Source: a virus
Lineage: Duplodnaviria > Caudoviricetes
Length of the DNA: 54,463 nt
Virus record (IMG/VR): IMGVR_UViG_3300043568_000537
Coordinates: 1-54,463 of that record
Reading direction: 5' to 3' (one strand)
Made by a program: the position numbers and the translations under genes. The first letter of the stretch is position 1, and every line of letters begins with the position of its first letter. Under the pieces are notes generated by a model. That model searched no databases. It was given only the letters and a program-made list of their open reading frames with translations, and had not been told where the DNA came from. Shown piece after piece: positions 17,951 through 25,197 of the stretch.

Positions 17951-18967
17951 TTAAAATGGGAAATATGTTTTGTCATCCTTGTGGTATGTCATACAGTACT
18001 CACACATACCATCCTTGAGCTCATGCTCATAGTACTCTATTGCACAATTCCAACAGTCTCTTACCTTCTCACTGCCATATGACTTGCTGTATGTCTTGCC
18101 GTCATAAGACCAACCATCCCAATCATTATAAGTTGTGTCAGCTTTCTTTACACTATCCCAACCACCGTACCAATTACCCTTGCTAGCAGTTGGCTTGGCG
18201 TATGTCTTAGGCGTAAATTTGAACTCATATACCTTAGTGCATGATGACATGATAGAGTATACCATGTTGAGACAGTTCTCTACATCATTGAGGTTAATCA
18301 TCTCGTCATCCATGTGAGGATTGTAATACCCACAAGACATGTTAGCCACACATATACCTACACCACTCTGTGCCAGGGTATACACATCTGTCAGTCCGCC
18401 CGTAGATTCATTGTACCCATAGTTGTCAATGATAGGGGCAATGTCATTGTAGAACTCCTCACCATATAGGTCAGTGCCAAATATGTTATAGACAAAGTCA
18501 CTGTTACCCTTTCTGTCACACTGTAGTATAAACCGACAGTCATTGAAGAATGACAGGTCAGCTACACTACTACCTACACAGCCAACCTCCTCATCTCTGA
18601 AGAAGGCTGCCTTGCAATAATCTAATGACTCCAACATTGATAGGCATATGTATATACCAACCTTGTCATCACCACCTACGCCAGTAGGGCGCATGTTCTT
18701 GATGTCATATGCCATAGCTATGTTGTCATCATGTACCACCATGTAGTCCTGCGTGGGAATTATATCGTGGACAGTATCCGTATGTGATACGATACATGGA
18801 TACTTGCCATCGGTACTTACACCCTTAGTTACGTAGAGGTTGCCCTCATGTAATTCTACATCGTAGCCACGTTCAAGACACTTGTCAAGGATATATTCAA
18901 CCATTGAGTCAGTATTGTAGCTGACAGATTGAATGTTGAGAATCTCAAGGAATTGTTGATTAATCAT
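17951..18967 (-). CDS. M20/M28-family zinc peptidase
   Basis: SHTDTVH, GGDDKVG, DEEVGCVGS, QCDRKG, GLTDV and NMSCGYYNPH motifs; C-terminal CxxC...CxxC. Confidence 0.85.
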   Translation of the reverse strand: MINQQFLEILNIQSVSYNTDSMVEYILDKCLERGYDVELHEGNLYVTKGVSTDGKYPCIVSHTDTVHDIIPTQDYMVVHDDNIAMAYDIKNMRPTGVGGDDKVGIYICLSMLESLDYCKAAFFRDEEVGCVGSSVADLSFFNDCRFILQCDRKGNSDFVYNIFGTDLYGEEFYNDIAPIIDNYGYNESTGGLTDVYTLAQSGVGICVANMSCGYYNPHMDDEMINLNDVENCLNMVYSIMSSCTKVYEFKFTPKTYAKPTASKGNWYGGWDSVKKADTTYNDWDGWSYDGKTYSKSYGSEKVRDCWNCAIEYYEHELKDGMCEYCMTYHKDDKTYFPF

Positions 18968-20321
18968 TGTATACTTCTTTTGTTTCTACATCGCTGTAGC
19001 TGTTTTTTAAATAAAATCTGCCTGTTGTTTTGTCCGACACTGTATCTTCAGTAAGCGCCCACTTGCCATCCACTAACTGAACGCAGTCATCTATCAATGC
19101 ATACTCACCATCATGCAACTCAACTGCATCGTCATATGGTATAGCATCACCATTGACATCCCACACAATGTCATCAACATGGTAATACTCTGAGTGATGC
19201 TCAACATATACTATATGGTCAGAGTCGCTTGCGAAATGCTCACCACGGCTTGGCACATATACTGCGTCCTCGTCAAGCCTCCATCCCTCATATGTCTCTA
19301 CACATCTGTCATGATATGCATAGCCATCAACCCATCTGCCACTGCTACGCCTATAGTCAAGGTGTATAGCATCATCCTCATGTATCCTGTCTCCCGATAC
19401 AATACAAGTAACATGATTGGATGTGTCTTCCCATGAACCATCGGTCTCACGAAGTGTACGATAGTCACTGTTGGGCTCAAAGTTGCACAGCCTACCAGTA
19501 TCCTCACATAGAAACCTAAGCGAATCCATGTAAGGGTAGTAGCTATAATCCCAATTGCGTAGCGTAACACTTACATTACAACCACTACTAACGTGCTTAC
19601 CATTCATCATGTCAAAGTCATGGTGATGGCAAGACTGTGAAGACTTGTACCTCATACCATTACGGATGGCAAAGTCAGTGAAGATTGGCTGTAGGTGTTC
19701 GGCTGCATAGATTGTATCCATACACAGCCCTGTCTTGTCAGTATTCCATATCAATGCCCTGCCTGCAACCTTGTGGTCTTGGTCAATACACACAGCCATG
19801 GATATCTCGTCAGGGTTTTGCTTGTAGATATCAAAGAAGTCACTGTCCGAATGGCGCATACAGCTACCGGAAAGATTACCGCCTGCATGACAACTGTATT
19901 GGTCATTGGCATAGTACAATGGAATAAGACCGCCATTGCATACCACCATTGTAAAGATAGGATCACTACCGCCATCACCATCACCATGCACACCTACATA
20001 TGATGCGACAAGGTTGCTGAACTTCTCATAGTCAGAATCCTTGATAGCAAGGTGGTCTATCAAGACTTGGGGTATAACCTTGCGTATTACCCTGGCAGGC
20101 TTGCCGTCTTGCCTACCATCCCTACTCCACTTGCCGTCATCATTGACCTTGTGCTCTTTACCTGCCGGAAGGAAGGATACCATTCCCCCTCTCATGGTTA
20201 GGTAGTTGACCTCATCAGTCGTACAATTCATCGAATACTTTGTTAAGGCTCTTGCAATGTTACAGTCCAACTGTTCATGCAAGTAAGTGAGCATTGTTTG
20301 GAAACTACTGCTGTAATTCAT
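18960..20321 (-). CDS. Uncharacterised phage protein (SCM...GRALIW...MDTIY core plus acidic C-terminal repeats)
   Basis: 453-aa ORF overlapping the peptidase start; YPYMDS motif followed by short D-x-V repeats. Confidence 0.75.
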   Translation of the reverse strand: MNYSSSFQTMLTYLHEQLDCNIARALTKYSMNCTTDEVNYLTMRGGMVSFLPAGKEHKVNDDGKWSRDGRQDGKPARVIRKVIPQVLIDHLAIKDSDYEKFSNLVASYVGVHGDGDGGSDPIFTMVVCNGGLIPLYYANDQYSCHAGGNLSGSCMRHSDSDFFDIYKQNPDEISMAVCIDQDHKVAGRALIWNTDKTGLCMDTIYAAEHLQPIFTDFAIRNGMRYKSSQSCHHHDFDMMNGKHVSSGCNVSVTLRNWDYSYYPYMDSLRFLCEDTGRLCNFEPNSDYRTLRETDGSWEDTSNHVTCIVSGDRIHEDDAIHLDYRRSSGRWVDGYAYHDRCVETYEGWRLDEDAVYVPSRGEHFASDSDHIVYVEHHSEYYHVDDIVWDVNGDAIPYDDAVELHDGEYALIDDCVQLVDGKWALTEDTVSDKTTGRFYLKNSYSDVETKEVYND

Positions 20322-21542: not shown

Positions 21543-21725
21543 TTATTTATTATTTACAGATTCTTCAATGGCTGCTGCTATACAGCTGATAACTAAAACG
21601 GCTATTGTGAATGCCCCTCTACCACCATTACCCCAATTGGATGGGTTAGGTACGAATGATATGAAAGCAATTATCAAGTAAAGGGAGATGAGGACAATCA
21701 GTAGGATTGCTATGAACTTATGCAT
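21543..21725 (-). CDS. Small 2-TM membrane protein
   Basis: TM, NPSNW...R, TM pattern. Confidence 0.55.
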   Translation of the reverse strand: MHKFIAILLIVLISLYLIIAFISFVPNPSNWGNGGRGAFTIAVLVISCIAAAIEESVNNK

Positions 21726-21930
21726 ACAACCCCCTTTCTACAGCTTGCATTGCTGTTTTAAGTTCAAATGCCTTGTAGTTTGCCCATGCTTCAGCCAACT
21801 TCTCTTTAGGATCGGTTGCTTCTGACAATTCGTACCACTTGCTGATTAGAGCCTCTGTTGTACTCTTCTTGGCTACCACCACCTTGCCACTATAGACAAG
21901 AGTTGATGTCTTTTTGATTCTACTTCTCAT
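21718..21930 (-). CDS. Small basic early protein
   Basis: 70 aa; ACAACACA before ATG, similar to the start context of 22819-23211. Confidence 0.55.
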   Translation of the reverse strand: MRSRIKKTSTLVYSGKVVVAKKSTTEALISKWYELSEATDPKEKLAEAWANYKAFELKTAMQAVERGLYA

Positions 21931-21982
21931 TGTGTTGTTGTTCAGATGTACTGCTGTCCACCAGTATGTTGATGATTAAAAA

Positions 21983-22028
21983 TAGGTATAGGGTGGGGAG
22001 TTGAACCCCACCTACGACCATCCTATAC
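21983..22028 (-). ncRNA. Minimal tRNA-like element (acceptor stem plus T-arm, no anticodon arm)
   Basis: Minus strand GTATAGG-ATGGTCGTAG-GTGGGG-TTCAACT-CCCCAC-CCTATAC-CTA. Confidence 0.65.
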
Positions 22029-22029
22029 T

Positions 22030-22762
22030 TTTAAAGGTTATTCACGCGTGATTTGTCAGTTATGTAGCAACATCCCGTTGCCCATAGTATTTTACTCCCT
22101 GCTTAATCAACATACAACGCCCACTTATAGCGTTGAATGGCTTTCGTCCAGGAGGGGTCAATTACAGCTATTTGATAGCTACAGCGGACCCGAACCCGCT
22201 TATACACATTTACCACAATCCCTTAAAATGTGCGAAAATTACATGGATTTTCCTTGCAAAAGTATAACTTCACGAAAGGCTTCAACTTAACGCCAATCAT
22301 GTTTCCACCTTGCACCCAAACTGCAAAGCTGTTTATCTCTAATGCCCACTTGGAAATATATTAGTACAGACCCATCCACATTTGGCACAGCATTTCGCTG
22401 TATGTGAATATTGGGTTAAACGTCCTTTGACCTATCAATTTTTGCTACTATTCTACCTTTGCCGTAAACTACATACATTACATGATGTAGAAACATCCAC
22501 ACTAAACTTTCTACATGGGATAGGACTTAACTTCTCGCCCATTATGGGATATGCCCAAAGTTTACTGCAAAAGCTACCAAATAGTTGCAAACATTACCCC
22601 ATACAATGCCTTTCGCTATTGTATGGCTTTTGATAGGCGAAGCATTGCGTAATCCGCCTAATATACGTTTGGCACTCAAATTCCAGGCTACACTAATGTA
22701 CATACTACCCCACCCCCACTTAGGATCGCGGATGATGAGAGTTTTTCGCGGAGGAAAAACAA
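22030..22762 (-). ncRNA. Candidate large structured non-coding RNA (about 730 nt)
   Basis: No minus-strand ORF of 60 aa or more in an otherwise gene-dense block; more than ten local stems plus nested long-range pairings; GAAA-containing loops on the minus strand. Confidence 0.6.
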
Positions 22763-22766
22763 AATG

Positions 22767-22792
22767 AAAAAAGGGGCAGTTATAAGCTGCCC
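22767..22792 (-). terminator. Intrinsic terminator after the first early gene
   Basis: Minus strand GGGCAG-CTTATAA-CTGCCC-C-TTTTTT. Confidence 0.7.
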
Positions 22793-22818
22793 AACCTTGT
22801 TAAGGTATTAATATTAAT

Positions 22819-23211
22819 TTACTTTTTTGTAGCGTAGTAACGCTTGATTAATCCCAATACTAACCAAGTAGAAAAGCCCTTTGTATCGCTGTAAACTATT
22901 TCTTTTTCGTTTCTTAATGGGATTAAGTTTGTAGGGGTTAGGTCTTTTTCATTGTAGTTTTTGAATGAACTTAGGAACTTACCATCTGACAATTTGATGG
23001 CTGTAATACATGAGGAAATTGACCTTAGCTTTAATTTAGCATCCCTATTTTGAACGCTTTTGAATTGTTGTAATTCCCTTCCCGATACATTTTCGGCAAG
23101 GAAAATAATTTTTTCGCTTTTCTTAACAGCTGTTTTTTCGCTTTTCGCTTTGCTGTTTCCTTTCGCTGTTGCTGTTGCTTTGCTGTTTTTTGTTGCTGTT
23201 GCTGTGCTCAT
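22819..23211 (-). CDS. Basic 130-aa protein, first gene of the leftward unit
   Basis: N-terminal repeat ATATKNSK/ATATAKGNSK, Lys-rich, C-terminal FSTWLVLGLIKRYY. Confidence 0.75.
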   Translation of the reverse strand: MSTATATKNSKATATAKGNSKAKSEKTAVKKSEKIIFLAENVSGRELQQFKSVQNRDAKLKLRSISSCITAIKLSDGKFLSSFKNYNEKDLTPTNLIPLRNEKEIVYSDTKGFSTWLVLGLIKRYYATKK

Positions 23212-23300
23212 TGTGTTGAATTTAAAAATTAATGAATAAATGAATAAAAAATATATGTAATAATATACAATTAATGTAGACTGAAAATGAACGCCAATAT

Positions 23301-23495
23301 TTCAAAGAACTTTCGCACAATTCAAAGGGCTTGCCTTGTCGCTGTTGTATGGCATTTCGCCACATATTCAACAGCTATTGAACTACTGAAAAACCAGTTA
23401 ATCGGGTATAAAATTTTAGGCATAGCAATGCCATTACGTTTTCACGTTTCTTTTATTTTTCATACCCTTTAAAGAACTAAGCAAAAATATGCTTA
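23301..23495 (-). promoter_or_regulatory. Structured leader with two boxA-like antitermination sites
   Basis: Hairpin TAAGCA/TGCTTA (23478-23495) then GTTCTTTAAA (23468-23477); second GTTCTTTGAA at 23301-23310; TATCTTCG box at 23499-23506. Confidence 0.5.
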
Positions 23496-23759
23496 CAGCG
23501 AAGATATAATTAATAATTGGATTAATATGTATAATTGTAAAGTATTATTGCAACATTGTTGCAAATATGTAAACTATCTACGAAAACGATTTCGTAAATT
23601 TATTTGGTTATGTCGTTACAATTTTGTAAGCAATTTATACATAATACATTGTACTTTTTTTCTCATGTGGCGAATAGGTAAGGGATGCAAATGTATTGCA
23701 TGGGATAGGAACGCTTCTATCATGTACAAAGTACGCAAACTGAATATCCCACCATAAAC

Positions 23760-23808
23760 AGTCTATTAATTTTGTAGACTAATAATAGTCTATTGATCTT
23801 GTAGACTA
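23760..23808. repeat. Two tandem interrupted palindromes AGTCTA-N9-TAGACT
   Basis: AGTCTATTAATTTTGTAGACT (23760-23780) and AGTCTATTGATCTTGTAGACT (23787-23807). Confidence 0.8.
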
Positions 23809-23871
23809 AGGTACTCGGTTAGGGAGATCCGTTTTCCTGGAATGATCGGGGCGGAAAAAAAAATAGGGGTC

Positions 23872-23919
23872 CCTTACGACATTACACCCCTTATTCATTA
23901 TTTCCTTACGACATTACAC
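23872..23919. repeat. 16-bp perfect direct repeat, 32-bp period
   Basis: CCTTACGACATTACAC at 23872-23887 and 23904-23919. Confidence 0.85.
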
Positions 23920-24084
23920 ACCTATTTTACATATTATACCCCAACCACTTTACAGATTATATACTCTGTAGGAGGTGTATAATATAATTAAGAAGAAAAC
24001 CTCATAACTAACTGACAATCAATACTAGGATTCCCTAATAGGGGGATTAAATCCTTGGATAGGTAAAAAACACTACATTTGGTC

Positions 24085-24582: not shown

Positions 24583-25197
24583 ATGAAATATGAGATACCC
24601 AATGAGTTCAAACAGTTTGTTGCTAACGTAAGGAGGAGGTGCAGTGCCAATAGGATAGAACTTGTCCTATCTCCTTCAAGGAATGTTGTCATAACAGACA
24701 GCTTCTCTACAGACTGTTCGGGGTATTTTGATGATGTAAATAGAACTCTAGTGGTAGCCTGTGGCAAACCATTTGAAGAATGGATAGAGATACTCGTGCA
24801 CGAGTACTCACACATGCAGCAATGGCTAAGTGACGAAAGGTGGTCTCACTGGAGTGATTGTTGCTTTGATTTATGGGCATTCTTAGATGGGGAGAAGGTA
24901 ATGAATACCCAACAGCTTACTAAGGTCATTGATGGCATGATTGAGCTTGAAAGGGATTGTGAGGTTAGGGCATTAGAGAATATAAGGTATTGGAAGCTAC
25001 CTATAAACAAGTCTAGGTATGGCAGGAAGGCTAATCTGTACCTATACAGCTATAGAGCAATGCCTATAATGAAGAAGTTCCCTACGGGGCTGTACGACAA
25101 CAAGGAGCTTATAAGCATGTGCCCTACACGTATTAAGAAAAACTATAATGTGATACCCCAAGAGGTGCTAGATCTGATAGTAAAAACTTACACATAA
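24583..25197 (+). CDS. HEXXH zincin metallopeptidase-like protein
   Basis: ILVHEYSHMQQW with downstream ELERDCE. Confidence 0.7.
   Translation: MKYEIPNEFKQFVANVRRRCSANRIELVLSPSRNVVITDSFSTDCSGYFDDVNRTLVVACGKPFEEWIEILVHEYSHMQQWLSDERWSHWSDCCFDLWAFLDGEKVMNTQQLTKVIDGMIELERDCEVRALENIRYWKLPINKSRYGRKANLYLYSYRAMPIMKKFPTGLYDNKELISMCPTRIKKNYNVIPQEVLDLIVKTYT

What the first reader, a model, noticed from the sequence alone, without database searches (positions are those of the whole stretch)
21983..23506. Candidate RNA-centred early module: antiterminated leader, basic protein, large ncRNA and tRNA-like 3' element
Seen on the minus strand, in order: a TATCTTCG promoter box, a structured leader with two boxA-like sites, one Lys-rich 130-aa gene, an intrinsic terminator, about 730 nt of structured ORF-poor sequence, a mini tRNA-like element, then the early genes. 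Established: rrn-type boxA recruits Nus factors for read-through, and RNase P cuts 5' of acceptor/T-arm minihelices. Inference: the phage expresses a large stable RNA much as a host expresses an rRNA operon, matures its 3' end at a tRNA mimic, and may pair it with the basic protein as an RNP. I do not recognise this arrangement as a named system.
Basis: partly seen in the sequence, partly recalled or inferred. Interest (0 to 1): 0.85.

Follow-up and report, generated by a model that had tools for sequence, protein, structure and literature searches.

The report
New large phage RNA with tRNA-like end
A small group of freshwater phages carries, just after their first early gene, a large conserved folded RNA of unknown function that ends in a miniature tRNA look-alike and matches no described RNA family.

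Summary
On the minus strand lie a Bacteroidota-type -7 promoter box, a 280-nt leader, a conserved 130-aa basic protein gene, an intrinsic terminator, about 740 nt without a conserved ORF, a 44-nt acceptor/T-arm minihelix, and then early replication genes.

The ORF-free stretch is a structured RNA under strong selection. Its 5' and 3' domains are 91-95% identical to relatives whose third codon positions are only 51-57% identical. In the 3' domain, 18 of 59 pairs, including a pseudoknot, show compensatory changes. In the tRNA-like element, 7 of 13 pairs do. The module is found in 9 phage loci from about five lineages. No Rfam family matches, GOLLD and ROOL included. A metatranscriptome contig covers most of the RNA.

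Two ideas are not supported: rrn-style boxA antitermination, and an RNP with the basic protein. That protein family also occurs in 13 loci without the RNA and has no recognisable RNA-binding fold.

Best reading: a new class of large phage ncRNA whose 3' end is set by a tRNA mimic. This is a new variant of the GOLLD/ROOL kind. Function is unknown.

The parts
23498..23505 (-). -7 promoter box (TATCTTCG). Relatives have TATCTTTG or TAACTTTG.
   Evidence: The consensus TAnnTTTG is recalled. The word alone is not enriched in the window (72 matches against 59.8 expected).
23212..23491 (-). Long 5' leader of the basic-protein gene. It holds boxA-like words at 23477-23468 and 23310-23301 and a covarying nested hairpin.
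   Evidence: 81-86% identity to relatives. 4 of 48 pairs compensatory. Site 2 is conserved in L025-L028 and site 1 is not.
22819..23211 (-). Gene for a 130-aa basic protein: a disordered Lys/Thr/Ala-rich N-terminal tail followed by a five-helix domain. Function unknown.
   Evidence: AF2 pLDDT 81. pI 10.0. No family or fold match.
22767..22806 (-). Small hairpin (22806-22794) followed by an intrinsic terminator: G+C stem 22792-22774 and T run 22772-22767.
   Evidence: The two-hairpin layout is kept with different sequences in all 9 loci. In L025-L028 the terminator loop is T-loop-like.
22665..22766 (-). 5' domain of the RNA: hairpin 22760-22741, then a G.U-rich hairpin ending in a conserved G run (22740-22708).
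   Evidence: 91-95% identity to close relatives. Hairpin plus G run recur in diverged loci with changed stem sequences. An RNA-library contig ends at 22714 in adapter sequence.
22346..22664 (-). Variable middle part of the RNA. It is lineage-specific and largely missing in L004.
   Evidence: Joints at 22258/22273-22342 and 22445-22563 in other runs.
22058..22345 (-). Conserved 3' domain: seven nested helices plus a pseudoknot (22249-22245 with 22221-22217).
   Evidence: 92-93% identity to close relatives. nhmmer E 1e-52 to 1e-92 in L025-L028. 18 of 59 pairs compensatory and 98.0% of cells paired, against 31-47% in slid controls. 25 of 44 pairs compensatory with L029 added. Helix coordinates.
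21985..22028 (-). Mini tRNA-like element: 7-bp acceptor-like stem, 10-nt connector containing GG, 6-bp T stem, and the 7-nt T loop TTCAACT. It has no D arm and no anticodon arm.
   Evidence: 7 of 13 pairs compensatory, 96.5% paired, 0 of 500 shuffles as high. ARAGORN finds no tRNA.
21931..21984 (-). Conserved spacer between the tRNA-like element and the next start codon.
   Evidence: 91-93% identity to L002 and L003. Largely kept in L025-L029.
21718..21930 (-). First downstream early gene (70 aa). ORFs of similar size (62-70 aa) follow the element in L025-L028.

Best explanation
The stretch from about 22766 to 21985 on the minus strand encodes a previously undescribed large structured non-coding RNA. 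It is about 780 nt here and roughly 480-900 nt in relatives. It belongs to a small clade of freshwater, probably Bacteroidota-infecting, tailed phages.

Architecture (shown): a variable 5' part, a strongly conserved pseudoknotted 3' domain of about 290 nt, and a covalently attached 44-nt acceptor/T-arm mimic.

Proposed mechanism (inferred):
1. The RNA is made early, as part of or just downstream of the leftward early transcript that starts at the 23505 promoter.
2. Host tRNA-processing enzymes release it. RNase P would cut 5' of the mimic, between 22029 and 22028, and define the 3' end of the large RNA.
3. A 3' tRNA-type cut after the discriminator would free the downstream early mRNA. The mimic would thus act as tRNA punctuation.
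4. The large RNA then acts as an RNA, in the manner of GOLLD or ROOL.

Shown: conservation, structure, strand, linkage, and presence in an RNA library. Inferred: co-transcription, RNase P cleavage, stability, and action in trans.

The basic protein is the conserved first early gene, beside which the RNA was acquired. It is not a demonstrated partner.
For: Selection on the nucleotide sequence:
- Third codon positions of the neighbouring gene are 51-57% identical to L002, L003 and L004.
- The non-coding 5' domain is 91-95% identical and the 3' domain 92-93%.

Structure:
- On the MAFFT alignment of 8 sequences, 18 of 59 pairs have compensatory changes and 98.0% of cells are paired. Partners slid by 1-3 columns give 31-47% paired and at most 3 such pairs. 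0 of 500 shuffles reach the observed count.
- The pseudoknot covaries in two lineages, C-G to G-C and U-A to C-G.
- With L029 added through model R2, 25 of 44 pairs are compensatory (this alignment is fitted to the model).
- Helix-sized indels sit in loops: 26 nt in L003 and L026, and a 41-column sub-helix deleted in L028.

Strand: invariant G.U pairs occur in at least 5 helices and would be A.C mismatches on the other strand.

tRNA mimic:
- 11 copies, 9 of them distinct. 7 of 13 pairs are compensatory.
- The T loop TTCRAnT and a GG in the connector are present in every copy seen.

Linkage: all 9 loci with the RNA have the basic-protein gene directly upstream and a small ORF downstream.

No coding capacity.

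Expression hint: in metatranscriptome run X24, one 605-nt contig at depth 15.6 lies on 22045-22714 and bridges the two lineage-specific deletions. It runs into Illumina adapter sequence at 22714, with the read direction expected for a minus-strand RNA in a dUTP library. The tool warns that DNA can be present in such a library.
Against: - No transcript ends were mapped. The only RNA evidence is one assembled contig from one run, and it stops at 22045, upstream of the mimic.
- An intrinsic terminator stands between the promoter and the RNA, and no convincing Bacteroidota-type promoter was found between them. How RNA polymerase reaches the RNA is therefore open.
- The acceptor and T stack is 13 bp, not the 12 bp of tRNA, and no CCA is encoded. 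RNase P or RNase Z recognition is not assured.
- In the window the mimic is followed by a T run and could simply terminate transcription. This T run is absent in L029 and weak in L027 and L028.
- Only 9 loci are known, and several are close relatives, so covariation counts partly reflect shared ancestry.
- The function of the large RNA is unknown.
Confidence: 0.6

Rival explanations
1. It is a cis-acting leader. The conserved 3' domain, mimic and spacer would form a giant regulatory 5' region for the downstream early genes, for example an RNA that renders RNA polymerase termination-resistant (put-like) or that controls translation of the 70-aa gene. It would not be a free RNA.
For: The element sits between a terminator and about 19 kb of early genes with no obvious promoter of their own. 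The 54-nt spacer up to the ATG is also conserved. The order RNA, mimic, small ORF is invariant.
Against: About 290 conserved pseudoknotted nucleotides plus a tRNA mimic is far larger than known antitermination RNAs (recalled). A second copy of the mimic in L002 and L003 follows an extra ORF with no large RNA before it, so the mimic works as a separate module. The RNA-library contig covers the RNA at higher depth (15.6) than the contig reaching the next gene (2.6). Contig depth is a poor measure of expression.
Confidence: 0.2
2. One reading: rrn-like boxA/Nus antitermination in the leader drives read-through, and the basic protein binds the large RNA as an RNP.
For: Two boxA-like words lie in the leader. 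Site 2 is conserved across diverged phages. The protein is very basic, with a disordered Lys-rich tail. The gene and the RNA are adjacent in 9 of 9 RNA-bearing loci.
Against: The boxA-like words are not above chance. Site 1 is lost in L025-L029. A site-2-like word also stands inside the RNA region of L025 and L026, which fits a DNA promoter or operator word. Homologs of the protein occur in 13 loci (two pairs of them look identical) that have no ORF-free spacer, no nhmmer hit, and no R1 or R2 hit. No RNA-binding family or fold was found.
Confidence: 0.1
3. It is a replication-origin transcript. The structured RNA would be a pre-primer, like ColE1 RNA II, made at the head of the replication-gene arm.
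For: The element lies next to the divergent-transcription switch and the cumulative GC-skew minimum at about 23-24 kb. It lies upstream of primase/helicase and exonuclease genes. Direct repeats are nearby at 23757-23809 and 23872-23923.
Against: The skew minimum is explained by the change in gene orientation alone. Nothing in the conserved pseudoknotted domain or the tRNA mimic is required by a primer model. No RNase H or origin features were tested.
Confidence: 0.06
4. It is a relic: a decayed tRNA gene or an attP core (a copy of the 3' half of a host tRNA gene) beside otherwise non-functional spacer.
For: The T arm has the canonical tRNA loop.
Against: The local acceptor stem covaries on both strands. 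The flanking spacer is more conserved than coding DNA. No genome among one representative of each of 185,579 species holds the T-arm plus 3' strand word. No integrase was seen among the 28 ORFs scanned against PHROGs. Not every ORF was scanned.
Confidence: 0.03

Closest known systems
GOLLD and ROOL RNAs (large ornate phage or prophage RNAs)
   Same: Phage-borne, several hundred nucleotides long, multi-helix with a pseudoknot, and of unknown function. [quoted passage not shown] The GOLLD properties come from passages read in 10.1101/2024.12.08.627333.
   Different: No match to either Rfam model in the window, L027 or L029, even at E up to 10. It carries an armless 44-nt mimic rather than true tRNAs. 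It sits inside an early operon, not in a tRNA island: ARAGORN finds 0 tRNAs in the window. Oligomerisation has not been tested.
MALAT1/MEN-beta with mascRNA (a tRNA-like element that sets the 3' end of a long ncRNA through RNase P)
   Same: A long ncRNA is followed directly by a small tRNA-like structure. This is the logic proposed here for 3'-end formation. The eukaryotic mechanism is recalled.
   Different: The Rfam mascRNA-menRNA hit is chance-level: 14.5 bits against a gathering score of 42.5, E 7.8. The known case is eukaryotic and nuclear, this one is a phage. The present element lacks an anticodon-like arm. Cleavage has not been shown.
tRNA punctuation of polycistronic transcripts (mitochondria; tRNA-linked operons in bacteria and phages)
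   Same: A tRNA-shaped element sits between functional units of one transcription unit. The second copy in L002 and L003 follows an inserted small ORF.
   Different: These are mini-helices, not functional tRNAs. Processing has not been shown.
Bacterial and phage YrlA (Y RNA-like) tRNA mimics
   Same: A non-tRNA RNA with a T-arm/acceptor-like module. Only the title and abstract of PMC4201824 were seen, in the listing.
   Different: No Rfam hit to any Y RNA family. No Ro (Rsr) gene was noticed. Size and architecture differ.
rrn boxA/Nus and phage put-type antitermination
   Same: A long leader with boxA-like words stands ahead of a terminator that must be passed.
   Different: The words are not above chance and only one is conserved. 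No boxB or boxC, N or Q genes were identified. The mechanism cannot be tested here.

Membership tests
GOLLD RNA (Rfam) | Match to the family's covariance model | tested here: not met
   All-family cmscan at gathering score. Scans at E up to 10 on 2.6 kb and on 831 nt of the window, and on the L027 and L029 RNA regions, give no GOLLD hit. GOLLD is stated to be in Rfam in 10.1101/2024.12.08.627333. My two recalled accession numbers were wrong.
GOLLD RNA (Rfam) | Conserved 3' region, variable 5' region, phage context, tRNA association | tested here: met
   This is a resemblance only. Searches show the conserved 3' and variable 5' parts, the phage context, and the attached tRNA mimic.
ROOL RNA (Rfam RF03087) | Match to the covariance model | tested here: not met
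   The control genomes did not ring either, so that single call is weak on its own.
tRNA | Cloverleaf with D and anticodon arms, detectable by ARAGORN | tested here: not met
   0 tRNA or tmRNA genes in the window, and 0 in the loci tested that carry the element or a basic-protein homolog (L008-L029). The element is 44-47 nt, with a 10-14 nt connector in place of both arms.
tRNA | T arm with loop TTCRAnY stacked on an acceptor stem | tested here: met
   13 pairs, 7 with compensatory change, 96.5% of cells paired. The stack is 13 bp, not 12.
tmRNA | tRNA-like domain closed by the 5' and 3' ends, a tag reading frame, and pseudoknots | tested here: not met
   ARAGORN finds none. Rfam tmRNA matches only 15 nt of the T arm, 12.5 bits against a gathering score of 47.
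rrn-type boxA/Nus antitermination | boxA consensus in the nascent leader | tested here: inconclusive
   Two near-matches. Count at up to 1 mismatch is 16 against 12.85 expected. Site 2 is conserved and site 1 is not. The consensus is recalled.
rrn-type boxA/Nus antitermination | Nus-factor-dependent read-through of terminators | not testable with these tools
   Needs transcription assays.
Intrinsic terminator (element at 22792-22767) | G+C-rich hairpin followed by a U run | tested here: met
   The hairpin is kept with changed sequence in all 9 loci.
mascRNA-type tRNA-like 3'-end element | Match to Rfam mascRNA-menRNA | tested here: not met
   14.5 bits against a gathering score of 42.5, E 7.8.
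mascRNA-type tRNA-like 3'-end element | RNase P cleavage 5' of the element releases the upstream RNA | not testable with these tools
   Needs an RNase P assay or end-mapping.
RNase P RNA | Match to any Rfam RNase P model | tested here: not met
   Considered because one conserved word resembles the P4 region, which is a recalled resemblance. No hit.

The most novel reading that the evidence does not exclude
This is a new class of ornate phage RNA, a freshwater counterpart of GOLLD and ROOL. It would be released from the early transcript by the host's tRNA-processing machinery through a built-in armless tRNA handle. It would then act as an autonomous RNA machine, for example as a higher-order assembly or as a decoy or scaffold for tRNA-handling or translation factors, during host take-over.
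Probability: 0.35. Interest if true: 0.85.

Novelty: new variant of a known kind. Interest (0 to 1): 0.7.

Why it matters
Only a few classes of large, intricately folded bacterial and phage RNAs are known. Two of them, GOLLD and ROOL, were recently shown to build RNA-only cages whose purpose is still unknown (passages read in 10.1101/2024.12.08.627333).

An independent class with the same macro-features would give a second angle on what such RNAs do for phages. Those features are phage-borne origin, a conserved 3' domain, and a physical link to tRNA-like sequence.

The covalently attached, covarying mini-tRNA also gives a concrete, testable mechanism for how phages could cut a stable RNA out of an operon using host RNase P. 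It would be a bacterial analogue of MALAT1/mascRNA processing.

The RNA is short enough (about 480-900 nt) for in-vitro transcription, RNase P assays and cryo-EM.

Tried and rejected
Similarity searches that found nothing:
- Near or distant DNA similarity to deposited phages: none.
- Single-protein locus search in IMG/VR: none.
I split it into sub-alignments instead.
- Exact-word scans with RNA motifs returned only contigs already in hand.
- No hits in representative prokaryote genomes.

Structure details rejected:
- The long-range helices that RNAalifold proposed from the 4 close relatives were partly replaced once diverged sequences showed a local helix and a pseudoknot instead.
- RNAalifold's helix at A12 columns 111-116/124-129 was dropped, because 2 of 8 sequences break it and it clashes with the covarying pseudoknot.
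- The MAFFT alignment of the mimic misplaced a gap in L003 and L026. I used a covariance-model alignment instead. That alignment leans towards the model.

Ideas rejected:
- TAnnTTTG at 22264-22257 inside the RNA is not kept in L002 and L003, so it was rejected as a promoter.
- The + strand 80-aa ORF 22048-22290 is broken by the 26-nt and 41-nt indels in relatives.

The basic protein:
- No Pfam or PHROG match.
- Best PDB sequence hit E 0.44, an integrase N-terminal domain, which is not significant.
- Foldseek best E 3.8.
- ESM Atlas returned nothing usable.
- Complex prediction was not used, since no protein-protein claim is made.

Read-laying, parts without cover:
- The RNA-library run X24 showed no contig over 22724-23235 (the gene) or over 22276-22339 and 22468-22531.
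- Small-share runs X17-X23 were not used for habitat. X20, X21 and X14 hold diverged variants of the region as DNA contigs only.

Tools and sources that were closed:
The catalogue of 8,495 short candidate structured RNAs from IMG/VR (PMC10690425, passages read, lengths 29-151 nt) may contain pieces of this RNA, and I could not check.

Literature: searches found no description of this RNA. These searches cover only the held library.
Full report
CONTEXT. The window is a 54.5-kb IMG/VR virus record, about 80% complete. It is a tailed phage. The rightward arm (from about 24.1 kb) encodes terminase, portal and virion proteins. The leftward arm (from about 23.2 kb down to 2.9 kb) encodes primase/helicase, exonucleases, dNMP kinase, a methyltransferase and many small ORFs. 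Near-identical DNA is held by lake-water and river metagenomes. The -7 box at 23505-23498 reads TATCTTCG here and TATCTTTG or TAACTTTG in relatives. That fits the Bacteroidota promoter consensus, which I recall rather than take from a call. The finding therefore sits at the very start of the early, replication-gene arm.

THE OBSERVATION. All the listed elements exist at the stated places on the minus strand. Details are in the observation check.
- The 130-aa gene is real. It has 15 homologs at E up to 0.01 among 24 candidates and 41 cluster representatives at E up to 0.001 in the exhaustive search.
- The protein has a disordered Lys/Thr/Ala-rich tail and a confident five-helix domain, with mean pLDDT 81. 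Its pI is 10.0.
- It has no Pfam, PHROG, PDB-sequence, fold or Atlas match.

RELATIVES.
- Protein-guided searches gave three close relatives: L002, L003 (the same contig as L005) and the short contig L004.
- They also gave a distant group of 13 loci, L008-L020. Two pairs among these look identical.
- A search with the neighbouring 453-aa early protein (113 homologs) returned 32 loci.
- Of the 30 loci beyond the two already known (L025-L054), exactly five carry the RNA by nhmmer: L025-L028 over the 3' domain (E 1e-52 to 1e-92) and L029 over its 3' end only (E 7.5e-13).
- The same five carry a homolog of the basic protein directly upstream.
- Each of these five has 645-1240 nt between that gene and the next ORF of about 60-70 aa.

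THE RNA IS UNDER SELECTION AND IS STRUCTURED. Conservation against L002, L003 and L004:

| Region | Identity |
|---|---|
| Gene, third codon positions | 51-57% |
| Gene, first and second codon positions | 82-87% |
| Non-coding 5' domain (22767-22665) | 91-95% |
| Non-coding 3' domain (22300-22029) | 92-93% |

- The middle part is variable and largely absent from L004. Other metagenomes show the same lineage-specific deletions.
- On a plain MAFFT alignment of 8 sequences, a structure of seven nested helices plus one pseudoknot has 59 pairs. Of these, 18 carry compensatory changes and 98.0% of cells are paired.
- Sliding the partners by 1-3 columns gives 31-47% paired and at most 3 such pairs. 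None of 500 shuffles reaches the observed values for four of five measures. The count of further pair types is not distinctive, being reached in 150 of 500 shuffles.
- The pseudoknot (22249-22245 with 22221-22217) changes C-G to G-C in L025/L026 and U-A to C-G in L027/L028.
- Covariance model R2 of the core finds the nine known loci among 41 sources and nothing else below E 0.4.
- With the diverged L029 copy (25.9 bits) aligned in, 25 of 44 pairs are compensatory (this alignment is fitted to the model).
- Indels fall in loops or remove whole sub-helices.
- Invariant G.U pairs in at least five helices fix the minus strand as the sense strand.
- No reading frame survives on either strand.

THE tRNA-LIKE ELEMENT.
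- 22028-21985 folds into a 7-bp acceptor-like stem, a 10-nt connector containing GG, a 6-bp G+C-rich stem, and the loop TTCAACT.
- Model R1 finds it once in each of the nine loci. It finds a second, diverged copy in L002 and L003, behind an extra small ORF that the window lacks.
- Searched over whole records, 7 of 10 virus records have it and 3 more distant ones do not.
- Across 11 copies (9 distinct), 7 of 13 pairs show compensatory change and 96.5% of cells are paired. Slid controls give 35-57%.
- It is not a tRNA. ARAGORN finds none. There are no D or anticodon arms, the stack is 13 bp, and no CCA is encoded.
- Rfam gives only sub-threshold hits to the T arm of tmRNA and to mascRNA.
- In L025-L028 the terminator hairpin upstream of the RNA also has a T-loop-like loop.

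NOT A KNOWN FAMILY.
- Rfam 15 (4227 families) gives no hit at gathering score over the whole window.
- It gives nothing relevant at E up to 10 on the region, nor on the L027 and L029 versions.
- A ROOL search of the record is negative.
- No representative prokaryote genome holds either of two conserved words. This also argues against an attP or host-tRNA origin.
- Four literature searches found no description.

EXPRESSION.
- One metatranscriptome run holds a 605-nt contig (depth 15.6) that lies on 22045-22714 in three pieces and bridges the two lineage-specific deletions.
- Beyond 22714 it continues into Illumina adapter sequence. That marks a fragment end inside the conserved G run of the 5' domain, in the read orientation expected for a minus-strand RNA.
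- This is a weak hint. It is one run, made of contigs, and DNA may be present in the library.

WHAT IS NOT SUPPORTED.
- boxA antitermination. The two words are not more frequent than chance. Only the second is conserved in diverged leaders. A similar word stands inside the RNA region of L025/L026, so a promoter or operator reading is at least as good.
- RNP with the basic protein. Adjacency holds in 9 of 9 RNA-bearing loci. However, 13 loci with a homolog of the protein have ORFs following at once, no nhmmer hit (best E 0.26), and no R1 or R2 hit.
- The simplest history is that the RNA module was acquired downstream of a pre-existing first early gene.

MECHANISM AND VERDICT. The best-supported reading (about 0.6) is a new class of large structured phage RNA with a covalently linked tRNA mimic.
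- That the element is a selected, structured, minus-strand RNA I hold at about 0.85.
- That the mimic is cut by RNase P, so as to release a stable RNA and punctuate the operon, I hold at about 0.45.
- A trans-acting function is inferred only by analogy with GOLLD and ROOL.
- The main rival is a cis-acting giant leader for the early genes (0.2).
- The finding is real and unusual, and worth experimental follow-up. The regulatory and RNP parts of the original interpretation should be dropped until tested.

Noticed in passing
L002:7207-7250 and L003:7239-7282 (no counterpart in the window; junction near window 20574/20567): A second, diverged copy of the mini tRNA-like element (34.8 bits). It lies directly behind an extra small ORF that the window lacks, as if ORF plus mimic were an inserted cassette.
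   Followed up: partly
L025:5449-5471, L026:5010-5032, L027:923-939, L028:952-970: The intrinsic terminator after the basic-protein gene has a T-loop-like hairpin in these phages. The RNA is therefore flanked on both sides by T-arm-like hairpins. In L027 the region gives a weak Tymo_tRNA-like hit (E 0.12).
   Followed up: partly
window 23757-23809 and 23872-23923: Two pairs of tandem direct repeats (26 nt at 88% and 20 nt at 95%) lie in the divergent intergenic region, near the cumulative GC-skew minimum. They could be operators, iterons or an origin.
   Followed up: no
window 23357-23339 vs 22631-22613; 23298-23278 vs 22297-22277 and 22542-22522: Short words are shared between the leader and the large RNA: a 19-nt word at 89% identity, and a 21-nt word in three copies at 71-76%. 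Their meaning is unknown.
   Followed up: no
window 18960-20321 (-): A 453-aa early protein with 113 homologs and no Pfam or PHROG family. It has many invariant Cys, His, Trp and Gly columns. It is a widespread unknown phage protein.
   Followed up: partly
window 24583-25197 (+): The second gene of the rightward arm has a borderline match to the DUF6782 putative metallopeptidase family (26.9 bits against a cut-off of 27).
   Followed up: no
window 21931-21984 (-): The 54-nt spacer between the mimic and the next ATG is about as conserved as the RNA itself across diverged phages. Both early genes start in the same context, a 12-nt word repeated at 23218-23207 and 21937-21926.
   Followed up: no
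runs X20-X22 ('organism A'): Small DNA runs filed under an organism name hold several diverged variants of the region. One is a 316-nt contig with 28 differences over 22006-22259 that then runs on unlike the window. They are a possible source of further RNA variants.
   Followed up: no
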